A model generated the notes under the pieces. It saw only the letters and a program-made list of their open reading frames with translations. It had not been told where the DNA came from and ran no database searches. Of a DNA stretch of 64,000 nucleotides, positions 9,609-57,404 are shown piece by piece. A program made the position numbers and the translations under genes. Source of the stretch: Prorocentrum cordatum (lineage: Eukaryota); contig CAUYUJ010000033.1 of assembly GCA_963575745.1 (NCBI GenBank), positions 1 to 64,000 on the forward strand. The letters run 5' to 3'. Positions within the stretch are counted from its first letter, which is position 1; each line of letters begins with the position of its first letter.

Positions 9609-12098
9609 CGGGGCCAGAGGAGGTGCCGCTGCCGCGGCTCGCGCTGGAGGCTGGCGCGCCCTCGTCGCCGCGGCGGGCTTCCCCCCGACATGCTGGGCAG
9701 AACGCCCCCCGGGGGAGGCCCCAGGGAGCTGCGGGGCCCCCTGACGTCGGAGCCGCCGTGCCCTGGTGGATGCTCGCGGCGTCGGCAAGGCACCCGGGCG
9801 GCGAGAAGGCGAGAGAACGGCAGGAGCGGCCGCCCCGGACGAGGTCGGGGTAGGCCGCTCCGCGGGGGCGGGGCGGGAGCAGCGGCGGCGCCGCAACGTG
9901 TGGCGGTCATCGGCGGCAGCCTGGTCCGAGCATGTGCTTCGGGTGGAGGGCAAAGGGTGGAGCCTGAAATGCCGTTCCGATCGACTTCCGAGGCTCGGAT
10001 CTGCAGAAGGTGGATCACAAGACGGATGGGTGTTCGAGGTGCAGGAGTCCATACACCGCACTCACATCTATGCCCCTGGGTGGGTGTATGTGCGGCCGTT
10101 TTCGCGCTGTCATGTGCGCGCATGTGCGCGGCATGTGCCAGTCATGTGCCAGGCCTGTGCGGTCCTTCTTGGATGGACTTCCTGCTGTGCACGTCGTGCC
10201 CGGGCATGTGCGGGGGAATGTGCGCTGTGTTCTGGTGTATCCATCATACGCACATGCACGCACAGTCCGACGCACATGCGCGCACATGCCTGCACATGCG
10301 GGAGGTGTTCGAGAATCCCAGGTCTGTCATCGGCACATGCACGCACATGCTTGCGCAACCTCTCTTCGGGAGGCCGCGCGGGACCGCACATGCACGCACA
10401 TGCGGTGAAACGCGCGGGCGCACATGCGTGCACATCCCAAAGCACATGCACGCACATGCCCCAGGAACTGTCTGGGACCCCTGTGCCTCTAATGCCTCCT
10501 GGCCTTCGCAGAGCTATTGTAACCTGGGGCGTGCCAGGGCTTCCTGAAAGAGTTTTTTGTGCGTTTAGACTCGCCCGCTGCTGGCGGGGGCGGTTCTTCG
10601 CCCAGTTCGTGAGCTGGCGGTGGCGTGCCCTCCTAGTAAAACACTCCCGCGCGCCTTCTCAGTCGGCCGGAGAAGCAGGGGTGGGGGAGCCTTCTGCCCT
10701 GAGAAGATGCTCAGCTGCTTGCGAGTTTGAACCGAAGTCCGGGCGGGGGGCGGGCAGTGCCAGGGCCCCGGGGCGGGCAAGGGGCCAGCCAGGAGCAGCG
10801 TCAGGGGGGGGGGATGGACTCGGAGGGCGCGCGCGTCGAGCTCCGATCGCCCCTCTCTCGCTCCTCTCTCGCTCCTCTCTCGCTCCTCTCTCGCTCCTCT
10901 CTCGCTCCTCCCCCTCCTCCTCCTCCCCTCCTCCTCCTCCTCCTCTCCTCGTCCTCCTCCTCTCTCCTCCTCCTCCTCCTCCTCCTCCTCCTCCTCCCCT
11001 CCTCCCTCCTCCTCCTCCTCCTCCTCCCCTTCCTCCTCCTCCTCTCCTGCTCCTCCTCCTCCTCCTTCTCCTCCCCCTCACCTCCTCCTCCTCCTCCTCC
11101 TTCTCCTCCTCCTCCTCCACAATTATTCAATATGAAAATACTCGCCCTCTTCCCCTGATGGCGTCCGGGTGATGGCCGCGCACCCTCCGCGTACTGTTTT
11201 TTACACACAGGATCCCCGGGAAATCCCGGGAAACGACTCTCGCTGAGGCGCCGGCGTCATTTTTTTCCAAAATGCTGCTCTCGTTGAGGCGCCGGCCTCA
11301 TTTCTGCTCCCGAATCGTTCCGAATCGTGCTCCCGCTGCAGCGTGGGCCTCATTTTCGGATCGGTGTTTGGCCTCCGTCGTTCAGGATGGCGTTCTCGCC
11401 CCAGCGCGGGCCTCTCGCGCGCCCATCCGCCCGCCACCACCGCGCCGCACCGCCACCACCACCACCGCCACCACCACCACCACCACCACCACCACCACCA
11501 CCACCACAACCACCACCAGCACCAGCACCAGTACCAACACCACCACCACCAGCACCACCACCACCACCACCACCAGCACCACCACCATCACCACCACCAC
11601 CACCAGTACCACCACCACCACCACCACAATCACGCACACACGCACGCACGCACGTGCACCACCACCCACTACGCACGCGCGCGCGGAGCCACAGGTCCGC
11701 TACGACACGCGTCCGCGGATAGAGAAAATCAACGCCATGGCAAAGGATGGGAGGGAGGGGTAGGACGTCAGATATGACGCGAGCGCACCTAGCTTGTCCC
11801 CCTCCCCCTCCCCCTCCTCCCCTCCTCCTCCCCCCCTCCTCCTCCCCCTCCTCCTCCTCCTCCTCCTCCTCCTCCTCCTCCTCCTTCACCACCTCCTCCT
11901 CCTCCTTCACCACCTCTTCCTCCTCCTCCTCCTCCTCCTCCTCCTCCTCCTCCTCCTCCTCCTCCTCCTCCTCCTTCTGGCAGGGGAAGCGGTCCGAGCT
12001 GCTTGCGCACAGGGCGCCGCTTGCCGCGCCGCCAGGAGGACAACCGGGTGGAGTCTCCCATTCGTTGGGCGAGGTGGGGCCTTCGGCGGGGGGGTGCA

Positions 12099-15000
12099 AT
12101 GTCTTCTCTCCGCTTCCTGGGCTTCAACCCGCTGTGGGCGATCGGCGATCGTTTGAGTGAGATAATGGGCGAGACCAGAAATTTCGATGCAGTGGCTTTG
12201 GCAGGGACCAAGTGTGTGGATCATCCGCAGCAGGGTTTGCGTGTTCTTAGACAACGATGTGCAGGGCGTTTAGTTCTGGAATCGCCGTATTACAAGTCGC
12301 CGTATAGTAACAAGAGCTGCGGGTGTGCACTGGGATTTGGTAGTTATATTCGAGAGCAGAATATTATGATAACATGGGTCAGCCCCCCTGAGGCCAGAGG
12401 GAGAGCGCTGGCGGCCAGAGCAAAAAACGGTCCAATAGATATATGTCCGATGGTGGTGTAGTTTCCTCCACGCCCGAGGTATCGCGCTCATGGGCCTCAG
12501 TAGTTTGCTACAGTACGTCTCTTGGTGGCATGGATTTCAATGGTGCTGAGCGAACTACCACATAGGTGTACCCCGCTGCTATATTGTGATCTCAACGATG
12601 GTATTGGTCAGTCTCGTGGACCCCATGGGTGGGAAGATGTTGATTCAACGGCGGTCATAGATGTCCCCACGCAGGAGCAGCTCCCTCGAGGTGCAGGACA
12701 ACTTTTCAGATACTGTATGGAGTCCCACTACCTGGTGGCGGGCAACACGGCTGGCCAGCTACGACATTTTTCTTCGGTTCAGATGGCGTTTCGAGTCGCA
12801 TTGCTTACTTTTTTTTATCCGAAGGCTATGCAAAATTTGGTGAGAGGGTGCTACCCGTTGAAAGGGCTGGGGGGGGGGGCAAAATTGCAAGCAGCTCGAG
12901 GACAATCCCCTCGCGATCATATACCAGTCATGTGTACGATGATTTATGATAAAGCGGGCTTGCTTGGAGGACCATCTTCGGCTCGCGTGGGCTGGTTTCG
13001 TGATCTCATGATGGCGTCATTGCGGAGTGGCAAGTGCAGGCGAGATTTTCTTACCGCGGCGAAGGAAGGGATCGAGAAGTTACTTTTCGTCTTCTTGAAA
13101 GATCAGGCATCCCCAGATGAGCTGTTCGAACGGTTGGAGGATGTGGTCACTACTGCCGGGCAACGTATTTTGTTTTGTATCTAGTCGTACCAGTCATGAA
13201 TATAAGAAGAGTGCTGAGCGTCGTCGTCACCTACCGGCGGAGCGAGTTCGACGTCGCGGCTCAAAGCTGGGCGTGTCTGAAGCAGACGCACAGGAGGTGG
13301 ATGATGAGCGTCGCCGCGCTGCGCGATCTCTTCGTTCTCAGTTGATTGAAGAGGCATCGGTGCAACGGCGCAGGAGGTATATTTCTGACGCGCTCTCATT
13401 ATCCAGGCGTGCAGCTCGTTGCAGAACCGGCCCGAAGAATGGAGATGGGCGCCTGGTACAGGGGCCGCCCCCCAGTCGGGAGGAGTGGCTCCAAGCTTGG
13501 CGAGCTCCTGGGGGTGAAGGAGGTATGATGGTGAAGGAGGCGGACTGGGATGCTTGGCGGGCAGAGAGGGAGGGGGGGGTCTACGACTGGGACGTAACGC
13601 GGGAGGAACAGGAGCTTGCCCAGCAGGATCTGAAGTTGATTAGGTCTTACATCAAGCGGCCCCCGAAGAGGCGGGCTGTTCCAGATGGCACTGCTCCTCT
13701 CGAACTTTGGCATCAGCTACTATTCCCGAACTGGAGGGCCTCACAGCAAAAAGAGGGAGTAGGTTATGACGCGTCCATGCCCATGGTTCCTGGGTTCTGG
13801 TGGATCCTCTCAGTGGGCCTCGCGAAGGTTCGACACTTCCAGGTGGCCCCGCTATATTGGCATCGGAGTCGAGGGGCAGGGCTTCCAAAAAGTGTTCAAT
13901 GTGGTTCCCGAGGGAAAAATGGTACTACACGCGCTGCCTGTTCTGGGAAAAGCGTTCGATTCCAGGATGTTGAAGATTGCGCCCTCTCAACAATATCATG
14001 GCTTCATCGTCCGCAGGAGGCGAGAGGCTGCTATTTTCATCGCCCAGGTGAATTGCTGGCGATTGCGCCGTCTTCGGAGATCTTTCGCGATGAGCCTCAA
14101 GGATATGACAAACGCCTTTGGGAGCTCGGGCTGGTCCGAATTAGAGATCACTATTGCTCACTCCACCTCGGAGGAGAACCGCGCCCTCTGTCAGCAACGT
14201 TACGAGAATAGCATGGTTGAATTAACTGCGGAAGAGGGCCCCCTGTTGGTCAAGCCGTTCCAGGGCGGCGTCATGGGGGGGCCCTTCACTGTGGCCGCGT
14301 TCCTAGGTACTTTTTCTCGGGCCACGCTCCAGTGGGCTTATCAGTGGAGTCGATCAGACTCGATGTCCCGCTTCTTGGTGGCGAAATGGCAGGATTTCCA
14401 GAGTGGCCTCAGTTTGCTAATATACGCAGATGTTGTAAACAAAACAGCAGTGGCCTCCGACGAGATGGCCCTGGGGGACTTAGTCGGGAAGGTTCATGAG
14501 ATGGACGAGATTTTCGATTCGGTGTTGCAGCCGTTCGGGTACGTTCAGAACTTGAGGAAGCAAGAGTTTTTGACGTACTTCGCGTCCCAGGGAAATCGCG
14601 CCCGACAGATGGTTCGGAAAGGTATCTCGGGCATCCAGGGCACAATCAAGGATCGTGTGCGGTACCTGGGGCCCCACATTCGGGTGCGTGACTCTAGTCA
14701 TCAGGAGGTCACTAGGAGATGTTCGGCAGCGCGGACTGCATTCTATAGAGTTGGCGGCATCTGGTCGCTGGCGATCCCTTTTAAGCTGCGCAAGCTCTTG
14801 CTGGTGGGCAATGTGCAGAATGCCCTCCTCTCTGGCTTGGAAGCGTTTGTGCTCAGCAAGGCCGACTACTGTCGCTTGGACAGTTGCTTGGCCTCACTGG
14901 CACGAGTTGCGATGCTTGGTCGCGCCACGCACAAGGGGGGGAACCACGCGAGGTCCCTTTCCCACTCCCAGGTCCTTCTCTATTGGCGACTCTTGGACAG

Positions 15001-15745
15001 CGAGTGTGAGATGAGAATTCGTCGATTGAAGTGGTGCCAGTGTTGGGCTGCGAGACCCGGCCATCATATCCAGCCGTTGTGCGCGATGTTCGGGGACTTA
15101 GAGGGCGATGCAGAGCGTGGTTTCCCACCGCAGTTGCTCGAGGGGGCCCCATCTGAGGCGGCGCCCCCGTGGCTGAGCCAGATGACGCACGATCTCGAGT
15201 GTGCCGCAGGTGTCGTCGATAGCGAGGCGATCGATGTGCTGCTTCATGACATGAACGCGTTCATAATTAAAGAGAAGATGGAGGATTTTTGCATGCTAGA
15301 TATGGCTGTGCTCAGGGCTTCGAGGTCTCGGGTTCAGGCCCCACCAACAGGTTTCCTATTGCCGTCTGAATGGTTTGAGAGACCTCCAGCAGCTCCTGAT
15401 GGGGATCCACAGCTTAGATGTAGAGCAAGTACGGGGACGGGCTTATGTGGGGCTGCTTTTCACACACGTAAAACATTAATGAATCACGACAGGGCTCATC
15501 ATAATGCACGTAGTCTAGCACATGTGATCACACCGACAAACATATGTGTGCACTGCAGGCAGATATTTTCGAGTAAGATCACAGCTTGGAGGCATCTCTG
15601 GGGCTCAATCCTGAGGGGCAGTTGTTGTGCGACTGGGCCGTGGGCACTGAGGGAGTTACTTCAGCCTCGATAATTGAAGTGTCCATTATGTGATTATGAA
15701 ACTGGTGATCTCCCTGATGTATGTAACCATTTTGGCTTCTGAGCA
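12099..15745 (+). pseudogene. LINE-A pol: AP-endonuclease, reverse transcriptase, three C2H2 zinc fingers (frameshifts/stops)
   Basis: APE: MSSLRFLGFN.., YCDLND, PRDHIPV. RT: QYHGF..RRRE, KDMTNAF, QGGVMGG, IYADV (YADD variant), RYLG. Fingers: C..CGAAFHTRKTLMNHDRAHH, CVHCRQIF..RH, CPLC-x12-H-x4-H (last one needs a 1-nt frameshift correction). Confidence 0.9.
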
Positions 15746-15806
15746 TATTCCATGGAAGTTGCCTCCATTCAGTGCCGATCATAGTGCGCGTATAGAGCGG
15801 CCCAAG

Positions 15807-16547
15807 ATGGAGCTTGCGATGCCATCGTGGTTCAGCGGCAAGAAGCGCGAGGGCGACAATGCAGAGCCGCCCAGCGCTGGAGCAGCATGCAGCGCGACGA
15901 GAAGCCGCGCGAAGACGGCCAAGAAGGACGGCGGCAAGGGCGGCGGCAAGGACATGGCGAAGGTCGTGGCCCAGGTCGTGCGCCTGCTGCTCACCGTGAC
16001 GCGCGAGCTCGGGGACGTGGCGAGCGTCGTGTTCCTCAGGTGGGACATCGCCCCCGATCGAGGGCTTCTAGCGTGCCTGGCTGTGCAAGGCAAGAAGTGC
16101 GACGACCAGAGCAAAGACATGAGGGCCAAGCAGGCCGAGGGAGTGGAGCAGGACGTCAAAGCGAGGGGTCCGCCACACATGCACATATTCGTGTCGGCGA
16201 TGCAGTATTGCGCCACGCGAACTCCTACAGCGGGGTCTACGGAGGAGGCCGAGAAGACACTCAATCAGGACAGCAAGGAATGGTGGACACAGTACATGAG
16301 GGAGGAGATTCCGCTGAAGGAGATTGGGAGGGCAGCGCCGTACTTCAGGCGCAAGCCTCTGCGCAAGGAGAACAGGTGTATCATCATGATGAGGACGGAC
16401 TTCAACAAGCCAATGGGAGTGGAAGCGCCTCGAATCCTGGAGGCGGTGATCGAGGCCGAGGGCGGAGAGTTCCTGCTGGGTTCAGCTCCGAGGGGGCCCA
16501 TCGAGCGGGAGCTTCTGGCCTGGGTGAACAAGTCCGACGGAGCTTGA
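15807..16547 (+). CDS. Intact 246-aa ORF of unknown function inside the LINE-A 3' region
   Basis: Open, non-repetitive, GC3-rich coding sequence (MELAMPSWF...KKDGGKGGGK...GPPHMH...GSAPRGPIERELLAW) lying between the RT and the tail/TSD. Confidence 0.7.
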   Translation: MELAMPSWFSGKKREGDNAEPPSAGAACSATRSRAKTAKKDGGKGGGKDMAKVVAQVVRLLLTVTRELGDVASVVFLRWDIAPDRGLLACLAVQGKKCDDQSKDMRAKQAEGVEQDVKARGPPHMHIFVSAMQYCATRTPTAGSTEEAEKTLNQDSKEWWTQYMREEIPLKEIGRAAPYFRRKPLRKENRCIIMMRTDFNKPMGVEAPRILEAVIEAEGGEFLLGSAPRGPIERELLAWVNKSDGA

Positions 16548-17991
16548 GTGCGAGCCCGCGGCTGCAAGAGTTGATTTCGAGAGGATTGGTGGCGCCAGGT
16601 GTGCTGGGCCGACCTGGGCGAACTGCTGCAACATGCAGTGACCCTGGGCTGCCGCCTATCCCGACTGTAGTGCTGGCTCGTAGCCGATCGTTGCTTGATA
16701 GAGGAAAGGGGGGCGGGGTGGTGGGTCGGAGCGGGGGCGGGGGAGGAGAGGAGCTTCCTGAGCCTGTGGGCTGACGGCCTCTTGCGGGCTGCGTGCCCGC
16801 TGGCTTGTCAGACGGGGCCAGTGCCTCTGTTGGGGTGAGCGAAGGTCTCGCCTTAGTGAGTAAAGTGGGGTCCGTAGTGACCCGCCTCAGAGTCCTAGTG
16901 CGTGTCGAATTGCAGCTTGAGTTCAGGCAGTGGTGCAGTGCGGCAGGGTGCACAGTCAGGATTCCATGAGTTGGTCTAAGGTCTAAGGTCTCCTGGCAGG
17001 GGCCCGACGGTACACCCGCCCAAGAGCGCGCGGCTGCGCGGTGGGTCCATCGCCGAGCTAGCGGCGAGGCGTCGCCGATTCGAGCTCGACGCCTCCTCCC
17101 CGAACCTCCTCCTCCTCCTTCTCCCCCTCCTCCTTTTCCTCCTCCTCCTCCTCCTCCTCCTCCTCCTCCTCCCCCTCCTCCTCCTCCAGTCTCCCCCTGT
17201 TGTTGCTCCTCAATCGCAGGCGGGGCCCCCTTTTGGCGCCAGGCGGCGGGCAGGGGGCCGAGGGAGGAGGGCGGAAAGGGGGCGGCCTCATCGCCGCGCG
17301 GATTGGTTCCAGAACGTTACAGCAGCCGCCAGGGTGGAGTGAGGTTGGTTTGCGACATGGGGCTCTCGCTTGAGGCCGCCCTGGAAGTCAAACGGCCAGA
17401 TGGTGGAAGACATGAAACCATTGCACGGTTCAAGGGATGCGCTCTCAAAATGGGGCTCTCGCTTTAGCGTCCTTCAACTCAGCGGTCCGACGCGTGGAAC
17501 AGTTGCACGGATGCGGGGCGGCTCCTTTCCAATGTGGGGCCTCGCTTGACGCCTCGCTGAGCGGTATGATCGTTCCCGTGCGCTCTTTCCAATTCGCCAG
17601 AAGGATGCAAGGCACTGTTTTTTTCAACACGGGGCTCTTGCCCGACTGCCTGGCACACGGGGTGCTCGTCTTTCACGGGGGCGTCTCGTGTGGCGGAAAG
17701 GAACGCGTGCATGGATGTACGAAGAGGGATCTTGGGAAGGAGAGGTGTGCTGCAGCGTCGTTGATGTATCCCCTTTGGTTGACTCCGGTCCTGCTCGTTC
17801 TCCTCCTCCTCCACGCTCCTCCTCCCTGCTCCTCATCCTTCCCCTTTCTCCGTTCCTTCCTTGTATATAATTCTTCCAGTCGCGTCCCGACGCGTGTCGG
17901 TAGGGCGGGCCGGCCGAATCGCCTGAGGTTCTTTCGCCATTTCTATGATTATTCTGTGTTGGTAGGGCCTGCTCTAAGGCTCTCGCCATAG

Positions 17992-18915
17992 CGCCGCGCG
18001 CATTCATCTCAAAAGTGTGCAGGGGCTTCGCGGATGCTTGGCGGGCCGTTTTCAACATGTGGTTCTCGCCTACGCGCCGCGCGCATTCGTCTCAAAAGTT
18101 TGCAGGAGCCTCACGGATGGAGGGCGGGTGGTTGTCATAATGTGGTTCTCGCTTTGGCGCCGCGCACATTGGTCTTAAAAATTGTGCAGGGCGTTCTCGG
18201 ATGAACGGCGTGCAGATTGCAACATCTGGCATTCGCGTAAGAACAGCGCGCATTCGTTATGAAAGTTTGCCATCGTTTCGCGGGAGGAACGCTGGTGATT
18301 TTCAAAATGTGGCTCTCGGTTTAGCGCCGCGCAAATTTGTTGTAAACGGCTTTGCAAGAGTTTCATGGGTGTGTGGTGGGGGGAGGTCAAAATGTGGTTC
18401 TCGCTTCGGCGCCGCGCAGATTCCTTGTAAAAAGGTTCCGCCAGAGTTTCACGGATGGAAGGCGGGTGGTTTTCAAAATGTGATTCTCGCTTCAGCGACG
18501 CGCCCACTTGTTTCAAAAGTTTCCCAGGGCTTCACGGATGGAGGGCGGATGCTTTTCAAGATGTGGATCTTGCTTCGGCGCCGCGCATTTTCGTCCTTGA
18601 AGCTTGCAAGAGTTTTATGGATGGACGGCGGGAGAGACCAAAATGTGGTTCTCGCTTGGTTGTGAAAAGGTTCTGCAAGAGGTTCACGGACGGAAGGCGG
18701 GTGGGTTTCAACATGTGATTCTCTGCTTAGCGCCGCGCCCATTCGTTCCAACCGTTAACAAAAACTTCACGGATGGAGGGTGGGTGTTCTTCAAAATGTG
18801 GATCTTACCTTGGCGCCGCGCACATTCGTCCTTGAAGTTTGCAGGAGCTTCACGGATGGAGGGTTGTTATCAAAATGCGGTTCTCGCCGTAGCGCCGCGC
18901 ATATTCGTTTCGTAA
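17992..18915. repeat. ~83-bp minisatellite, ~11 diverged copies
   Basis: Unit CGCCGCGCGCATTCGTCTCAAAAGTTTGCAGGAGCTTCACGGATGGAGGGCGGGTGGTTTTCAAAATGTGGTTCTCGC...; starts at 17992, 18075, 18158; eroded copies back to ~17290. Confidence 0.85.
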
Positions 18916-19469
18916 ATGTACAACAGTTCTACGTGCTCTTATGGTTGACGTGTCAGAAGTGGTGGTCTGGCACGATTGAGGATTGTCAGGTCTCAGCAGT
19001 CAAGGTGATCCGTGGTGTTGAGGTCGCAGAAACGGTGTTCTGGCGCGACGCAGCATCGTCAGGACGCGACAATGAGGTTGCTTCGCGGCGCTGAAGTCCA
19101 AAGAGTGGTGTCTTGGCACGATGGAGGATTCTCAGCCAGTTGTCTTCCCACGGTGCTCTTTCTGGAGAAACGCGGCGCCCCCAGGGTACTGCCATTCCCT
19201 CCCCTGTTCTCATCCCTGCTCCCTCCTCCTCCTCCTCCTCCTCCTCCTCCTCCTCATCCTACTGGTCACTGCTCCATCCTCCCTGCTCCTCTCCTCGCTG
19301 CTCCCTCCTCGCTGCTCCCTCCTCCCTGCCTCCTCCTCCTCGCTGCCCTTTCCTCCCCCCTCCCTCCGCCTCGCTGCTCCCTCCTCCTCGTTGCTTCCTC
19401 TCCCTCCTCCCTCCGCCCTTGTGATCCGACGTCGCGAAAAAATGCAACATCGCGAAAATTCACGACCAA

Positions 19470-37581: not shown

Positions 37582-39836
<2,255 letters not shown>

Positions 39837-46700: not shown

Positions 46701-46995
46701 GGAAGCCCAGGACGGGGTAAAAAGGCGATCTGTGTCCAAAACTGGCCAGCTTACAAGGGGAGTCAGCTGGCAGGGAAGTGTGGGCCGTCCGTCCTCCATT
46801 CAAAATTCGCGCAGCCCTCCAGGGCGTGCGACGCACGGCCGCTAACAAGCCACGGAACCGACATGTAGGCCGCGACGCGCCGTCCATGTCAGGAGGGGGG
46901 CGACGGGAGAACGGCCGATAGGCCACAGAATAAGAGTTCGACTTATCAGAACAAAAAAGAGCAGGGTTCGCGGCGGCCCTGCTCTTCTCAAGGCC

Positions 46996-47225
<230 letters not shown>

Positions 47226-47388
47226 CAACACCGCTACGGACGCAACGCGGGGACGAGAAGGGGACGCCGCCTCAGGGCCCTCCGAGTGATGAGACTCACG
47301 AGGAGGATTCCAAAAGCAGGTGGGGCCATCCAGGCCCTGGTCCGACGGAAAAGGAAAGCTGGCAGCTGGGCCTGGCGAGGCTGTCAGG

Positions 47389-54900: not shown

Positions 54901-57404
54901 CTCCTGGTCCTCGGCCTCCGCCGCGCCAACGGTGGTCGCCTTCTCGAGGCCGTGCTCCTCGTCGACTGCCCCGAGCCTTGCGGCAGCCCGCTGGGCTGCA
55001 GGCCCTGGCAGGACAGCCCGCCTGGCATCGGCGGCGGCACATCTGTCGCCAGACGGAGCCTCCGCCCCAGCCTTGCCGAGAGACACCCGGCCTGGCTCCA
55101 AGCACGACTTGTCCCCGAATGCTGCGTCCGCAGGGCCACGGTCGATGCTCTCAACGGTGTCCTTCTTGAGCTGCAGGCCGTTCTCGTAGCAGGACCGACC
55201 GGCAGCGTCGATGTCGGCCAGGGCCCCGACGATGTCTACGACAGTCCTCCTGTCTTGACTCAGCTGTTGCACCATGGCCTCCATTTTTGAGGTCATGTTG
55301 TCTAGTCTCTTGGCCAGCAGCAACATCTCCCTCTCGGATAGCGCCCCAACGTTTTTCCCAGAAGTTCGTCGGGCGGAGAATCCGCGCTGCCGCAGGTTGC
55401 AAGCCTTGGCGATCTTCTCCATGGACGTGGTGCAACCGCCAGTGGGCCGCTCCTCCTTGGACTGACAGCGCCGGGCCGAGGCTGTTGGACAAGCCTGCTG
55501 CAGAGCACTGCGCCACAGACCCAGGGGCGGTTCCGCTTGCTGCGGCACTGCGTCCAGGGCCGCGGTGTCCTGCTGCGGGGGTATGCGCAACGGTTCCACA
55601 AGGGTCTCGGCCTTCTGCGGCTTTGGGCCCGAAGCCACTGCGTCTTCCTGCGGGAATGTCGGGCGCCGCAGCTCCAAGAACGGTTCCGCCTGCTGCGGCA
55701 GTGAGTCCACAGCCGCCTTGCCCTGCTGAAGTGGCATGCGCAGCTGTTCCAGGGAAGGCTCAGTTTTTTGCAGCTGTGGCGGAGGCTCGGCGCCCTGCTG
55801 CTGAGGCCACAACTCCAGGGGCGGTTCTGCCTGCTGCGGCAGTGTGTCCGCAGCCGCGGTGCGCTGCTTCGGGTGCGCGCACAGCTGTTCAAAAGGGTCG
55901 GCCTCATGTGGCGGTGTGTCTGAAAGCTCGTCGTCCTGCTGCGGAGGCCGCAACTCCAGGGGCGGTTCCGCCTGCTGCGGCGGTGCGTCCGCAGCCGCGG
56001 GGCTCTGCTGCGGATGCACGCACAGCTGTTCCAGTGAAAGGTCGGCCTGCTGTAGCTGTGGGTCCGACGGCTCGGCGCCCTGCTGCGGGGGCCGTAACTC
56101 CAGGAGCACTTCCGCCTGCTGCGGCAGTGCGTCCGCAACCGCGGTGCCCTGCTGCGGGTGCACGCACAGCTGTTGCATGGAGGGGTCGGCCTGCTGTGGC
56201 TGCGGGACCGAAGGCTCGGCGCCCTGCTGCGTGGGCCGCAACTCCACGGGCAGTTCTGCCTGCTGCGGCAGTACGTCCGCAGCCGCGGGCCTCTGCTGCA
56301 GGTGCACGCACAGCTGTTCCAGTAAAGGGTCGGCCTGCTGTGGCTGCGGGGCCGAAGGCTCAGCCTGCTGCGGAGGCCGCAGCCTCAGGGGCAATTCCGC
56401 CTGTTGCGGTAGTGCGTCCGCAGCCGCGGTGCTCTGCAACGAGAGTACGCACAGCTGTTGCATGGAGGGGTCGGCCTGCTGTGGCTGTTGGACTGAAGGC
56501 TCGGCGCCCTGCTGCGGGGGCTGCAACTCCAGGGGCGGTTCCGCCTGCCGCGGCAGTGCGTCCGCAGCCGCGGTGCCCTGCTGCGGGAGCGTGCGCAGCT
56601 GTTCTAAGGGTGTCTCGGCCTGCTGCGACTGCGGGCTCGAGGCGTGCTTGGCCTTCTGCGTCTCTGGGTCCGCGGCCGCGACGTCCTGGCTCGCCTCGGC
56701 TGGGGCGGCGGCCTGCCCCGTGCGGAGGTGCTCTTGCACGTCTGGCGCAAGGGGCACCCGCTGGTCTGGCAGCACGAAAGGCCTCCACCTCAGGGTCGCC
56801 TCTGCCAGCGGCAGCAGCTCCTCGAAGCCCCTCGGCGTTCCGCGCACCGCCTGGCCCAATCTCCTGAAGCCGTCGAACTCGCCGCCGCTGGTGCTGTCGG
56901 GGTGCAGCGTGTGGGCCACCAGGGCAGCGACGTCTCCTGGCCTCGCGACGGGCTTCACGAGCACGTCCTTCCTCCTCCGCAGGCCGTTGATGAACTCGTT
57001 GTCTTCCCAGGTCTCGCGGTCCGGAAAGCGCTGAGCCCTCCAGGCGGCACGGGTGTAGACGTAGGAGAAGCCCCAGCCGTACACCATCTCGTCCAGCCAC
57101 GCGCGCGGCACCCCGCGGTCGACCTTGGGGTTCAGGTACGCAAACGTGCGGTCGAGCAGGTGGAACGTGTGCCACTCCGATAGCGTCACGATCGCCGGGC
57201 GCTCGCCCCGGCGCGCGCCGTCCTCCCACTCCGGGCCCCTCGCCCGCGCCGTGTCCAGCAGCCTGCCCAGCATGAAAGCGAGGTACCCTGGCGCGTACAG
57301 GTCGTCGTCGTCGAAGTGGGCCAGCACCTCCCCCTCCGAGAGGTGCACCGCGATGTTCCGCTTCAGGCCCAGCGACCACCCGATGCCGAGAAGGGGGCCG
57401 ACTC
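51970..57404 (-). CDS. Host gene exon 3: GT2/GT-A glycosyltransferase-like domain (second half) + long repetitive tail
   Basis: WSLGLKRNIAVHLSEGEVLAHFDDDDLYAPGYL (DxD motif), GWGFSYVY, FPDRETWED; 5.4-kb open frame. The last ~700 nt may be mis-framed or intronic. Confidence 0.8.
52700..56630 (-). repeat. Coding tandem repeats: ~144-bp (48-aa, P/Q-rich) x~8 and longer units carrying SVAxLIRxxD x5
   Basis: PQQAEPPLELRPPQQGAEPS.. units at 56630-55510; (Q/H)SVA.(L/W)I.R/Q.D motifs at 54770-52720. Confidence 0.9.

What the first reader, a model, noticed from the sequence alone, without database searches (positions are those of the whole stretch)
15676..16992. LINE with an extra intact ORF/domain downstream of RT and no upstream ORF1
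Seen: within a 10-bp TSD, the APE starts only 112 nt from the 5' end, and a 246-aa open frame (15807-16547) with more GC3-rich codons follows the zinc fingers. The third C2H2 finger (CPLC-x12-H-x4-H) is completed only in the frame of this ORF, so it may ancestrally be fused to pol. Established: LINE accessory ORFs normally lie 5' of pol. Inference: an ORF1-equivalent placed 3', a novel C-terminal domain, or captured cargo. The basic KKDGGKGGGK stretch hints at nucleic-acid binding. 5' truncation cannot be excluded.
Basis: partly seen in the sequence, partly recalled or inferred. Interest (0 to 1): 0.7.

Follow-up and report, generated by a model that had tools for sequence, protein, structure and literature searches.

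The report
LINE with conserved gene behind polymerase
A worn-out copy of a dinoflagellate jumping gene (LINE) has no gene in front of its polymerase but carries behind it a conserved 246-residue protein gene of unknown fold, a layout that is the reverse of the usual one for such elements.

Summary
A 5,006-bp element (11987-16992, + strand) lies between exact 10-bp direct repeats. Its polymerase gene starts 112 nt from the 5' end, and an intact 246-aa ORF (15807-16547) follows three zinc fingers.

- **Not a one-off.** A DNA run holds the whole element, ORF included, as a multi-copy family with a 5'-truncation gradient.
- **A real, old gene.** The ORF protein belongs to an unannotated family: 84 clusters at 50% identity, no Pfam family, a confident AlphaFold model, and no match in PDB or BFVD.
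- **Linked to this polymerase.** Homologues sit directly behind pol sequence of the same kind in six other loci or gene models from several diverged lineages.
- **A separate gene.** A start codon just before a conserved P-x-W motif is kept across distant relatives. That argues for a separate gene, not an ancestral fusion.
- **Possibly nested.** In the window and in a 32%-identical relative, the polymerase frame has no stop across the ORF. The gene may therefore be nested in the +1 frame inside an extended pol frame.
- **Still inferred.** Function (most likely an ORF1-like RNA-binding partner) and mode of expression were not tested.
- **This copy is dead.** It has stops, frameshifts and YADV in place of YADD.

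Two earlier notes of this scan describe the same layout in this genome.

The parts
11977..11986 (.). Left target-site duplication CTGGCAGGGG
   Evidence: Exact 10-mer shared with 16993-17002. By my estimate about 0.4 such matches are expected by chance in the ranges searched.
11987..16992 (+). Whole LINE copy (5,006 bp), degraded
   Evidence: TSD. 300 contigs of DNA run X1 were laid at 80-100% identity over all 30 bins. Depth was 4-14 at the 5' end and 19-57 elsewhere.
11987..12098 (+). 5' UTR (112 nt); no ORF1
   Evidence: No Rfam family, including ribozymes, in 11800-17200.
12099..12461 (+). Start of pol with the endonuclease-like N-terminus (LRFLGFN at 12108-12137), ended by a private TAG at 12459-12461
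   Evidence: At 12461 all 3 covering X1 contigs read T, which gives TAT. APE identity is my reading of motifs only; Pfam and PDB gave nothing.
12504..13184 (+). Rest of the endonuclease-like part (CDLND at 12576-12608, RDH at 12906-12929) and linker, same frame as 12099
   Evidence: tblastn of P0003 matches 13023-13136. No Pfam or PDB hit.
13393..13896 (+). Linker and RT N-terminal part in another frame (frameshift between 13137 and 13392); motifs PDGTAPLE at 13669-13710 and LPK at 13873-13893
   Evidence: tblastn of P0069 residues 1-175, 50.6% identity.
13889..15670 (+). RT core and C-terminal region in a third frame (frameshift in the A-run near 13885-13895). YADV at 14414-14443, RYLGPHI at 14660-14680, finger 1 at 15443-15502, finger 2 at 15545-15595
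   Evidence: P0004 has YADD at the same place. Atlas features: 27 of 30 named hits are RVT_1 clusters, top score 0.93. Pfam gives only zf-C2H2_4 at E 0.008.
15671..15673 (+). TAA in the pol frame, probably a premature stop of this copy
   Evidence: It aligns to Thr-Ser of L001, whose frame runs on into finger 3.
15680..15748 (+). Third C2H2 finger, broken by one extra T in the run 15730-15733
   Evidence: The 1-nt deletion at 15730 is in 3 X1 contigs. Homologous fingers occur in L001 (CSVCDFDGSSLNDLLDHLRLH) and P0081.
15723..15737 (+). 15-mer matching the dinoflagellate spliced leader at 14 of 15 bases; probably chance
   Evidence: It is the only match in 64 kb at <=2 mismatches, with 0.05 expected. 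DinoSL sequence from PMC6050394. The 15-mer lies in finger-3 codons that are homologous to L001.
15807..16547 (+). Accessory ORF, 246 aa, pI 9.05. N-terminal MPSWFSG motif at 15819-15839, K/G-rich disordered stretch at 15921-15950, RGPPHMH at 16164-16184, GSAPRGPIERE at 16479-16511
15785..16774 (+). Pol reading frame open for 329 codons across and beyond the ORF (stop TGA at 16772-16774)
   Evidence: Stop depletion shown.
16548..16992 (+). 3' UTR (445 nt) ending in (GGTCTAA)2.7 at 16973-16991
   Evidence: Folding is no better than shuffles, z 0.36.
16993..17002 (.). Right target-site duplication CTGGCAGGGG

Best explanation
The window holds a dead copy of an endonuclease-type LINE of a Prorocentrum-like dinoflagellate. 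The family's layout is:
- a short 5' UTR;
- one pol gene (endonuclease, reverse transcriptase, three C2H2-type fingers);
- a second, separately initiated gene of about 246 codons;
- a 0.45-kb 3' UTR and a short heptamer-repeat tail.

The second gene is an old, integral part of this LINE clade and encodes a member of a large unannotated protein family. The protein has a conserved N-terminal P-x-W motif, a disordered K/G-rich basic stretch, and a roughly 200-residue alpha/beta domain with no known fold.

Inferred, not shown:
- In intact relatives the gene is nested in the +1 frame inside a pol frame that runs on across it.
- It is translated from its own AUG. The most plausible route is a 3'-coterminal mRNA made by spliced-leader trans-splicing.
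- The protein binds the element's RNA or RNP as ORF1 proteins of other LINEs do.
For: **Element.** TSD. Heptamer tail. 300 X1 contigs were laid at 80-100% identity: 36, 63, 101 and 100 in the classes >=99, 95-99, 90-95 and <90%. Depth rises from 4-14 at the 5' end to 19-57. RT motifs in LINE order were read. RVT_1 clusters make up 27 of 30 named Atlas hits.

**The ORF belongs to the family.**
- X1 depth over the ORF bins is 19-52.
- P0003 and P0004 hold RT pieces at 84-86% identity followed by the ORF at 85% and 73%.
- P0069 holds a 50%-identical RT N-terminus plus the ORF domain at 33%.
- L001 and P0038 hold fingers 2 and 3 followed by the ORF.
- P0081 and P0090 hold a finger followed by the ORF domain.
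- Pol C-terminus and ORF diverge alike from L001, at 35.8% and 32.4% identity.

**A real protein.**
- 84 representatives at E<=1e-3, 23 at <=1e-10.
- AlphaFold pLDDT 87, pTM 0.78.
- One X1 contig carries insertions summing to 12 nt and a 3-nt deletion in 15893-15944, a net in-frame change of +9.

**Own start codon.** A P-x(1-2)-W pattern was found in 37 of 92 family proteins. Of these, 22 start with M and have the motif within 16 residues. By my reading, 8 more have an internal M within 14 residues upstream.

**Nesting.** The pol frame has 0 stops across the ORF. Shuffles expect 6.5 in the window (P 0.001) and 3.8 in L001 (P 0.009). In the window that frame has stops only at 15671, 15740, 15782 and 16772.
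Against: - No tool recognised the endonuclease. Pfam and PDB sequence searches did not recognise the RT either, and its AlphaFold model failed (pLDDT 31).
- This copy is broken, so its own frames prove little.
- In the 3-T variant, finger 3 and the ORF are in one frame with no stop between them, which fits a fusion.
- Part of the stop depletion is a general codon-junction bias. Control pol pieces show 33 stops against 49 expected. The junction-preserving shuffle gives P 0.009 for the window but only 0.18 for L001.
- Some family members carry other N-terminal extensions with no recognisable pol part (P0009, P0055, P0080). Host or domesticated copies may therefore exist.
- No RNA data could be examined.
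- RNA binding rests only on a pI of 9.05 and a disordered K/G-rich stretch.
Confidence: 0.7

Rival explanations
1. The 246 aa are the C-terminal domain of pol (one long APE-RT-finger-domain protein). The separate ORF is an artefact of decay in this copy.
For: With one T fewer at 15730-15733, finger 3 is completed and reads on without a stop into the ORF: 84 nt from His 15744 to Trp 15828. That variant is in 3 X1 contigs, 13.8 of 29.4 depth. The gene models P0081 and P0090 join a finger to the domain.
Against: A Met just before the P-x-W motif is kept in distant relatives. In L001 the finger and the ORF are out of frame, at 82 nt. Copies differ by non-triplet indels between finger and AUG: a different frame in P0003 and one extra nt in an X2 contig. 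GC3 jumps from 0.48 to 0.81 at the ORF in the window, and from 0.52 to 0.83 in L001. P0081 and P0090-P0092 are alternative spliced models of one locus.
Confidence: 0.12
2. The ORF is a host gene whose spliced-leader-bearing mRNA was joined to a LINE by template switching (a chimeric retrocopy). The chimera then spread.
For: GTAACCATTTTGGCT at 15723-15737 matches DinoSL at 14 of 15 bases. It lies 70-84 nt before the AUG, within the -50 to -100 range reported for relics. The ORF's GC3 is far above that of pol. Some family members have non-LINE extensions.
Against: The 15-mer lies in finger-3 codons that are homologous to L001 and P0081, where the DNA is not SL-like. The ORF follows pol in several lineages that have diverged to 32-36% identity, with equal divergence of pol and ORF. 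A capture would therefore have to be ancient, which makes it an integral gene today.
Confidence: 0.08
3. Both frames are translated. The accessory gene is overprinted on a roughly 330-codon C-terminal extension of pol that is itself functional.
For: Zero stops in the pol frame across the ORF in two families. The frame stays open 75 codons beyond the ORF stop, to 16772, and to the end of the contig in L001. An X2 contig has one extra nt before the AUG. Together with the 3-T finger, this would carry pol into that open frame. Earlier notes e1-7626129 and e1-7628845 report the same arrangement but are unchecked.
Against: High GC3 alone removes most stops from that frame. Control regions show a general depletion to about two thirds of expectation. 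With that correction I estimate P of about 0.013 and 0.08. The extension reads as low-complexity R/G/Q-rich sequence. No single copy was seen with all the required states.
Confidence: 0.35

Closest known systems
Two-ORF endonuclease-type LINEs (L1, I, Jockey, CR1; in dinoflagellates SymbioLINE-Dnmt, PMC5890265, passages read)
   Same: Endonuclease-RT pol, TSD, 5'-truncated copies, simple-repeat tail, and a second smaller protein gene on the same transcript.
   Different: In those elements the second gene (ORF1) lies upstream of pol. Here nothing lies upstream and the gene lies downstream, possibly nested in pol. The protein has no RRM, CCHC, coiled-coil, esterase or DNMT domain detectable by Pfam or by fold search. 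The ORF1 domain types are recalled, not taken from a call.
L1Tc/ingi LINEs of trypanosomatids (PMC2805920, start of the abstract seen in the search listing)
   Same: No ORF1. C2H2-type fingers sit at the 3' end of pol, where L1Tc has its nucleic-acid chaperone. The host also trans-splices its mRNAs (recalled).
   Different: No further gene behind the fingers is described for L1Tc. No HDV-like ribozyme or other Rfam family was found here, and Pfam found no RNase H.
Earlier notes of this scan on the same genome: e1-7626129 and e1-7628845
   Same: A LINE without ORF1 and with a conserved gene of about 240-283 residues of unknown fold behind or inside the 3' end of pol. One of them lies after APE-RT-3xC2H2.
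   Different: These are other copies or families, and a look-up by sequence found no look-alike stretch. They are AI notes, and I could not see their sequences.
DinoSL-tagged retrogenes of dinoflagellates (PMC6050394, passages read)
   Same: An SL-like 15-mer lies 70-84 nt before the start codon of a GC3-rich gene.
   Different: The 15-mer is inside conserved zinc-finger codons, and the gene is linked to pol in diverged lineages. A relic is therefore unlikely.

Membership tests
APE-type LINE (non-LTR retrotransposon) | Reverse transcriptase with the non-LTR motif series | tested here: inconclusive
   Pfam RVT_1 was not hit at E<=10. PDB phmmer and profile searches found nothing. The AlphaFold model failed. 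In favour: 27 of 30 named Atlas hits are RVT_1, top score 0.93. I also read motifs in the order AF..W, QGG..GP, YADV (YADD in P0004) and YLG; the motif names are recalled.
APE-type LINE (non-LTR retrotransposon) | Apurinic-type endonuclease N-terminal to the RT | tested here: inconclusive
   No Pfam or PDB sequence hit. The only support is my reading of LRFLGFN, CDLND and RDH.
APE-type LINE (non-LTR retrotransposon) | Target-site duplication, simple-repeat or A-rich 3' tail, multi-copy with 5' truncation | tested here: met
   10-bp TSD. (GGTCTAA)2.7 tail. 300 contigs at 80-100% identity with a depth gradient of 4-14 rising to 19-57.
Two-ORF LINEs (L1, I, Jockey, CR1 type) | ORF1 upstream of pol | tested here: not met
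   Only 112 nt lie between the TSD and the pol ATG. A 5'-truncated copy cannot be excluded.
LINE ORF1 proteins | RRM, CCHC knuckle, coiled coil, esterase or PHD domain (types recalled) | tested here: inconclusive
   No Pfam family in the ORF at E<=10, and none shared by more than 1 of 48 members. No PDB sequence hit with the profile. Best fold matches: Foldseek E 0.4 with TM<=0.17; VIA Z 6.8 over 50-60 residues; BFVD E 0.18.
L1Tc/ingi clade | Single ORF with RNase H and C-terminal C2H2 fingers; 5' Pr77/HDV-like ribozyme | tested here: inconclusive
   Fingers are present. No RNase H by Pfam. No ribozyme by Rfam at E<=1. No RT phylogeny was made.
DinoSL-tagged retrogene | Relic spliced leader upstream of the start codon | tested here: inconclusive
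   14 of 15 bases match at 15723-15737, with 0.05 expected per window. No match to 19 nt at <=3 mismatches. The site is coding sequence of a conserved finger.

The most novel reading that the evidence does not exclude
A LINE clade of dinoflagellates has replaced the usual upstream ORF1 by a new-fold protein gene that is overprinted, in the +1 frame, on a long C-terminal extension of its own polymerase gene. It is expressed from a spliced-leader trans-spliced, 3'-coterminal subgenomic mRNA. This would be a virus-like overlapping, subgenomic gene arrangement in a non-LTR retrotransposon.
Probability: 0.3. Interest if true: 0.8.

Novelty: new variant of a known kind. Interest (0 to 1): 0.62.

Why it matters
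LINEs are taught as either single-ORF elements or as ORF1-then-ORF2 elements. A clade that keeps its accessory gene behind, and possibly inside, the polymerase gene raises two questions: how a downstream cistron is translated in a eukaryote, and what the accessory protein must do.

Dinoflagellates trans-splice their mRNAs and owe much of their huge genomes to retroposition. The machinery that does this copying is therefore of direct interest.

The protein family is large, unannotated and of unknown fold. Many 'uncharacterized protein' models of Prorocentrum cordatum are probably this LINE gene, or chimeras that swallowed LINE pieces (P0003, P0004, P0069). That matters for annotation.

Tried and rejected
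- **Whole genome.** None is held for this window. The repeat finder found no second copy in the window. An HMM of the family against the six-frame window found only the ORF itself.
- **Metagenome scans.** The first, with the close alignment A1, found nothing. The narrower alignment A4 gave one locus, L001.
- **Protein Atlas for the ORF.** No usable hit.
- **RT structure.** AlphaFold on a 4-row alignment failed (pLDDT 31), so no fold search of the RT was possible.
- **PDB sequence searches.** Nothing relevant for the RT, the APE pieces, the RT profile or the ORF profile.
- **Spliced-leader relic.** I first took the SL-like 15-mer for a relic that would show an SL-capped ORF mRNA. I dropped this when L001 showed the stretch to be homologous zinc-finger coding sequence.
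- **Sequencing runs.** No RNA holder was listed, so expression could not be examined.
- **Homodimer prediction for the ORF domain.** No verdict.
- **Rfam and RNA folding.** No Rfam family in 11800-17200. The 3' UTR folds no better than shuffles.
- **Earlier-findings look-ups.** By place (near) and by sequence: nothing.
- **Literature.** I found no paper describing a LINE with its accessory gene behind pol. Searches: 3 papers; 53 papers held at least 2 of the 3 terms, 12 listed; 13 papers, 12 listed. I judged them by titles and abstract starts, plus passages of PMC3956500 and PMC5890265. This is not proof that nothing is in print, and supplements were not read.
- **dN/dS.** It could not be computed, because no DNA of other copies could be fetched.
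Full report
**1. What is there**

The window is GC-rich (0.63) and full of (CCT)n-type simple repeats. No whole genome is held for it.

An exact 10-mer, CTGGCAGGGG, occurs at 11977-11986 and at 16993-17002. The 5,006 bp between the two copies behave as one repeat unit. In the contigs of a public DNA run (X1), 300 pieces could be laid on 11900-17100 at 80-100% identity. The identity classes were 36 at >=99%, 63 at 95-99%, 101 at 90-95% and 100 below 90%. All 30 bins were covered.

Summed depth is 4-14 in the first three bins and 19-57 further on. It halves in the two bins that contain the ends. This is the picture of a multi-copy, 5'-truncating retroelement whose ends coincide with the duplicated 10-mer. 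The 3' end is (GGTCTAA)2.7 at 16973-16991.

By my estimate the 10-mer alone would have about 0.4 chance matches in the ranges I searched. It is supportive, not decisive, on its own.

**2. The polymerase gene**

It starts at ATG 12099, 112 nt from the 5' end, and is spread over three frames. The pieces are:
- 12099-12461 and 12504-13184;
- then 13099-14211, matched by relatives over 13393-13917;
- then 13763-15673.

The disruptions I could place are:
- TAG at 12459-12461, where all 3 covering X1 contigs read T at 12461, giving TAT;
- a second in-frame TAG at 12501-12503;
- a frameshift between 13137 and 13392;
- a frameshift in an A-run near 13885-13895 (my reading);
- TAA at 15671-15673;
- one extra T in the run 15730-15733.

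The catalytic box reads YADV, where the related model P0004 has YADD. This copy is dead.

Standard tools did not name the domains:
- Pfam gave only a weak zf-C2H2_4 hit (E 0.008) and no RVT or Exo_endo_phos family, even at E<=10.
- phmmer and a profile against PDB sequences found nothing relevant.
- AlphaFold on a four-row alignment failed (pLDDT 31).

Positive evidence for an RT:
- Language-model features of the protein Atlas: 27 of 30 named hits are RVT_1 clusters, top score 0.93.
- The motif series I read in the translation (SLKDMTNAFGSSGW, FQGGVMGGP, YADV, RYLGPHI), preceded by PDGTAPLE and LPK. The motif nomenclature is recalled.

The endonuclease rests only on my reading of LRFLGFN, CDLND and RDH.

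**3. The fingers**

Three C2H2-type fingers end pol. A diverged relative fetched from a metagenome, L001 (1,326 nt), aligns to the window's pol C-terminus over 162 columns at 35.8% identity.

L001 shows that finger 3 is a real, conserved pol feature. The window has CPLCDYETGDLPDVCNH, and L001 has CSVCDFDGSSLNDLLDHLRLH. P0081 has a similar finger.

The window's TAA at 15671 aligns to Thr-Ser in L001, so it is a premature stop. Finger 3 is completed as H-x4-H only if one T of 15730-15733 is absent. Three X1 contigs (13.8 of 29.4 depth) have exactly that deletion.

**4. The ORF is a real gene**

The ORF 15807-16547 encodes a basic protein (pI 9.05).

Homologues:
- Close homologues are Prorocentrum cordatum models: P0001 (249 aa, 77%), P0003 (85%) and P0004 (73%).
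- A search of 1.84 billion cluster representatives found 84 at E<=1e-3, 23 at <=1e-10 and 4 at <=1e-30. Most are 200-270 residues long and cover the whole query.
- Of 20 representatives looked up, 12 carry the name Prorocentrum cordatum. The other 8 come from unnamed environmental contigs of 0.8-2.3 kb.

No known family or fold:
- No Pfam family matches the ORF, and none matches more than 1 of 48 members.
- The family profile hits no PDB sequence.
- AlphaFold on the 48-row alignment gives a confident model (pLDDT 87, pTM 0.78). Residues 1-45 are disordered, followed by an alpha/beta domain.
- Foldseek against PDB gave a best E of 0.4 with TM<=0.17.
- VIA-align against 48,161 chains gave a best Z of 6.8 over 50-60 residues of helical hairpin.
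- BFVD gave a best E of 0.18.
- The weak Foldseek rows are mostly small ferredoxin-like domains, which I take as no more than a hint.

Conserved features:
- an N-terminal L-P-x-W-F motif;
- a K/G-rich low-complexity stretch;
- R-G-P-P-H-x-H;
- G-x-A-P-R-G-P-L-E-R-E near the C-terminus.

One X1 contig carries insertions summing to 12 nt and a 3-nt deletion within 15893-15944. The net change of +9 nt keeps the frame.

**5. It belongs to the LINE**

X1 depth over the ORF bins (19-52) equals that over the RT.

Six other loci or models place a homologue behind pol sequence of the same kind:
- P0003, P0004 and P0069 contain RT pieces that tblastn maps to the window's RT, followed by the ORF. These are chimeric gene models that also contain KH or CCCH host exons.
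- L001 and P0038 have fingers 2 and 3 followed by the ORF.
- P0081 and P0090 join a finger to the domain.

These lineages are far apart. ORF identity to the window is 33% for P0069 and 32.4% for L001. Pol and ORF have diverged to the same degree from L001. L001's ORF is 57% identical to the 'stand-alone' model P0011, so at least some stand-alone models are probably LINE genes.

Results against this reading: other long members have extensions in which I recognise no pol part (P0009, P0050, P0055, P0080; also P0046, P0056, P0086). Host or domesticated copies cannot be excluded.

**6. Separate gene or fusion?**

For a separate gene:
- A P-x(1-2)-W pattern was found in the first 130 residues of 37 of 92 family proteins. 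Of these, 22 start with Met and have the motif within 16 residues. One of the 22 (P0094) is a spurious match by my reading.
- A further 8 with longer model N-termini have an internal Met within 14 residues before the motif.
- In L001 the last His of finger 3 and the Trp of the motif are 82 nt apart, so they are out of frame.
- Copies differ by non-triplet indels between finger and AUG. P0003 reads 15742-15792 in another frame. An X2 contig has 16 nt where the window has 15 before the ATG.
- GC3 jumps at the ORF in both families: 0.48 to 0.81 in the window, and 0.52 to 0.83 in L001.

For a fusion:
- In the 3-T variant of this family, the finger and the ORF are in one frame (84 nt) with no stop between them.

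I conclude that a separate cistron is the more likely, at about 6 to 1.

**7. A possible nested arrangement**

In the window the pol frame has stops only at 15671, 15740 and 15782. It then stays open to 16772, across the whole ORF and 75 codons beyond it. In L001 the pol frame is open from finger 2 to the end of the contig. In both, the ORF is in the +1 frame relative to pol.

| Test | Window | L001 |
|---|---|---|
| Stops observed in the pol frame across the ORF | 0 | 0 |
| Stops expected from shuffles of codon order or synonymous codons | 6.1-6.5 | 3.6-3.8 |
| P from those shuffles | 0.001 | about 0.009 |
| P from the shuffle that keeps codon-junction dinucleotides | 0.009 | 0.18 |
| My estimate of P(0) after correcting for the general bias (see below) | about 0.013 | about 0.08 |

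The control regions in pol show a general depletion in that frame: 33 stops observed against 49 expected over five pieces. The corrected estimates in the last row rest on that ratio.

The signal is suggestive, not proven. The X2 variant with one extra base, combined with the 3-T finger, would carry pol exactly into the open frame. I did not see both states on one molecule.

Two earlier notes of this scan on the same genome (e1-7626129, e1-7628845) describe a gene 'nested' in a pol frame that stays open across it. They agree with this reading, but they are unchecked AI notes and not independent proof.

**8. How it most likely works (inferred)**

The element is transcribed as one RNA, and pol is translated from AUG 12099. 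The accessory protein is translated from its own AUG.

If the gene is nested, termination-reinitiation is not available. The natural route in a dinoflagellate is a spliced-leader trans-spliced, 3'-coterminal mRNA of about 1.25 kb. The environmental contigs that hold stand-alone homologues are 0.8-2.3 kb long. That is compatible with such an mRNA, but it is no proof.

With its basic disordered stretch and compact domain, the protein would bind the RNA or the RNP, as ORF1 proteins do. None of this was tested. No RNA run was listed, and the homodimer prediction gave no verdict.

**9. A lead that I dropped**

GTAACCATTTTGGCT at 15723-15737 matches the 22-nt dinoflagellate spliced leader (PMC6050394, passages) at 14 of 15 bases. 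It is the only such site in 64 kb, with 0.05 expected. It also sits 70-84 nt before the AUG, where relics are reported.

However, it lies in finger-3 codons (N-H-F/L-G/A) that are homologous to those of L001, whose DNA there is not SL-like. I rate a true relic at about 10%.

**10. Comparison and novelty**

The closest known kinds are two-ORF APE LINEs and single-ORF LINEs with C-terminal C2H2 chaperone fingers.
- Two-ORF LINEs have ORF1 upstream. In dinoflagellates the SymbioLINE-Dnmt elements carry a DNMT ORF1 upstream of the RT ORF (PMC5890265, passages).
- L1Tc represents the second kind (PMC2805920, start of the abstract in the listing).
- The present clade shares the fingers and the lack of ORF1 with L1Tc, and a second gene with the two-ORF elements. 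It places that gene behind or inside pol and uses a protein of unknown fold.

My searches (with passages) found no description of such a layout. Subscription journals and supplements were not covered.

I rate it a new variant of a known kind. Within this scan it is the third sighting in this genome.

Noticed in passing
window 15723-15737: A 15-mer identical at 14 of 15 bases to the dinoflagellate spliced leader, inside the third zinc finger of pol. It is the only such site in the window.
   Followed up: yes
window 18016-18916: Ten tandem copies of an 83-nt unit (61-100% identity to the reference copy) just downstream of the element.
   Followed up: no
window 55521-56661: Tandem array with a period of 141-153 nt: 8 copies of a 115-nt core and 5 copies of a 298-nt unit.
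   Followed up: no
window 37949-38165 and 46993-47243: A poly(A) run of about 200 nt and a poly(T) run of about 200 nt, facing each other as inverted repeats 8.8 kb apart (92-96% complementary). They may be tails of two retrocopies in opposite orientation.
   Followed up: no
P0003, P0004, P0069 (Prorocentrum cordatum gene models): Public gene models are chimeras. They join host-like exons (KH domain, CCCH finger) to pieces of the RT and the accessory ORF of this LINE family, so TE pieces have been swallowed into annotated genes.
   Followed up: partly
P0009 (714 aa): A family member whose first roughly 470 residues are unrelated to pol and contain a Walker-A-like GEPNFGKT stretch. No Pfam family was found; it may be another chimera or a different gene fusion.
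   Followed up: no
P0002, P0089 (EukProt, labelled Pyramimonas sp.): Fragments of this dinoflagellate-type protein are filed under a green alga's transcriptome. P0002 is 65% identical to the window's ORF. P0089 lies in the 90%-identity cluster of the P. cordatum model P0011. Contamination of that data set by a dinoflagellate seems likely.
   Followed up: no
window 16669-16695: The 3' UTR holds CTCGTAGCCGATCGTTGCTTGATAG. It shares CGTAGCC and a loosely similar remainder with the spliced leader, but only when several gaps are allowed. Not significant by the searches made.
   Followed up: partly
L001 270-272: The diverged relative also has an in-frame TGA in pol between fingers 1 and 2, so that copy too is probably decayed.
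   Followed up: partly
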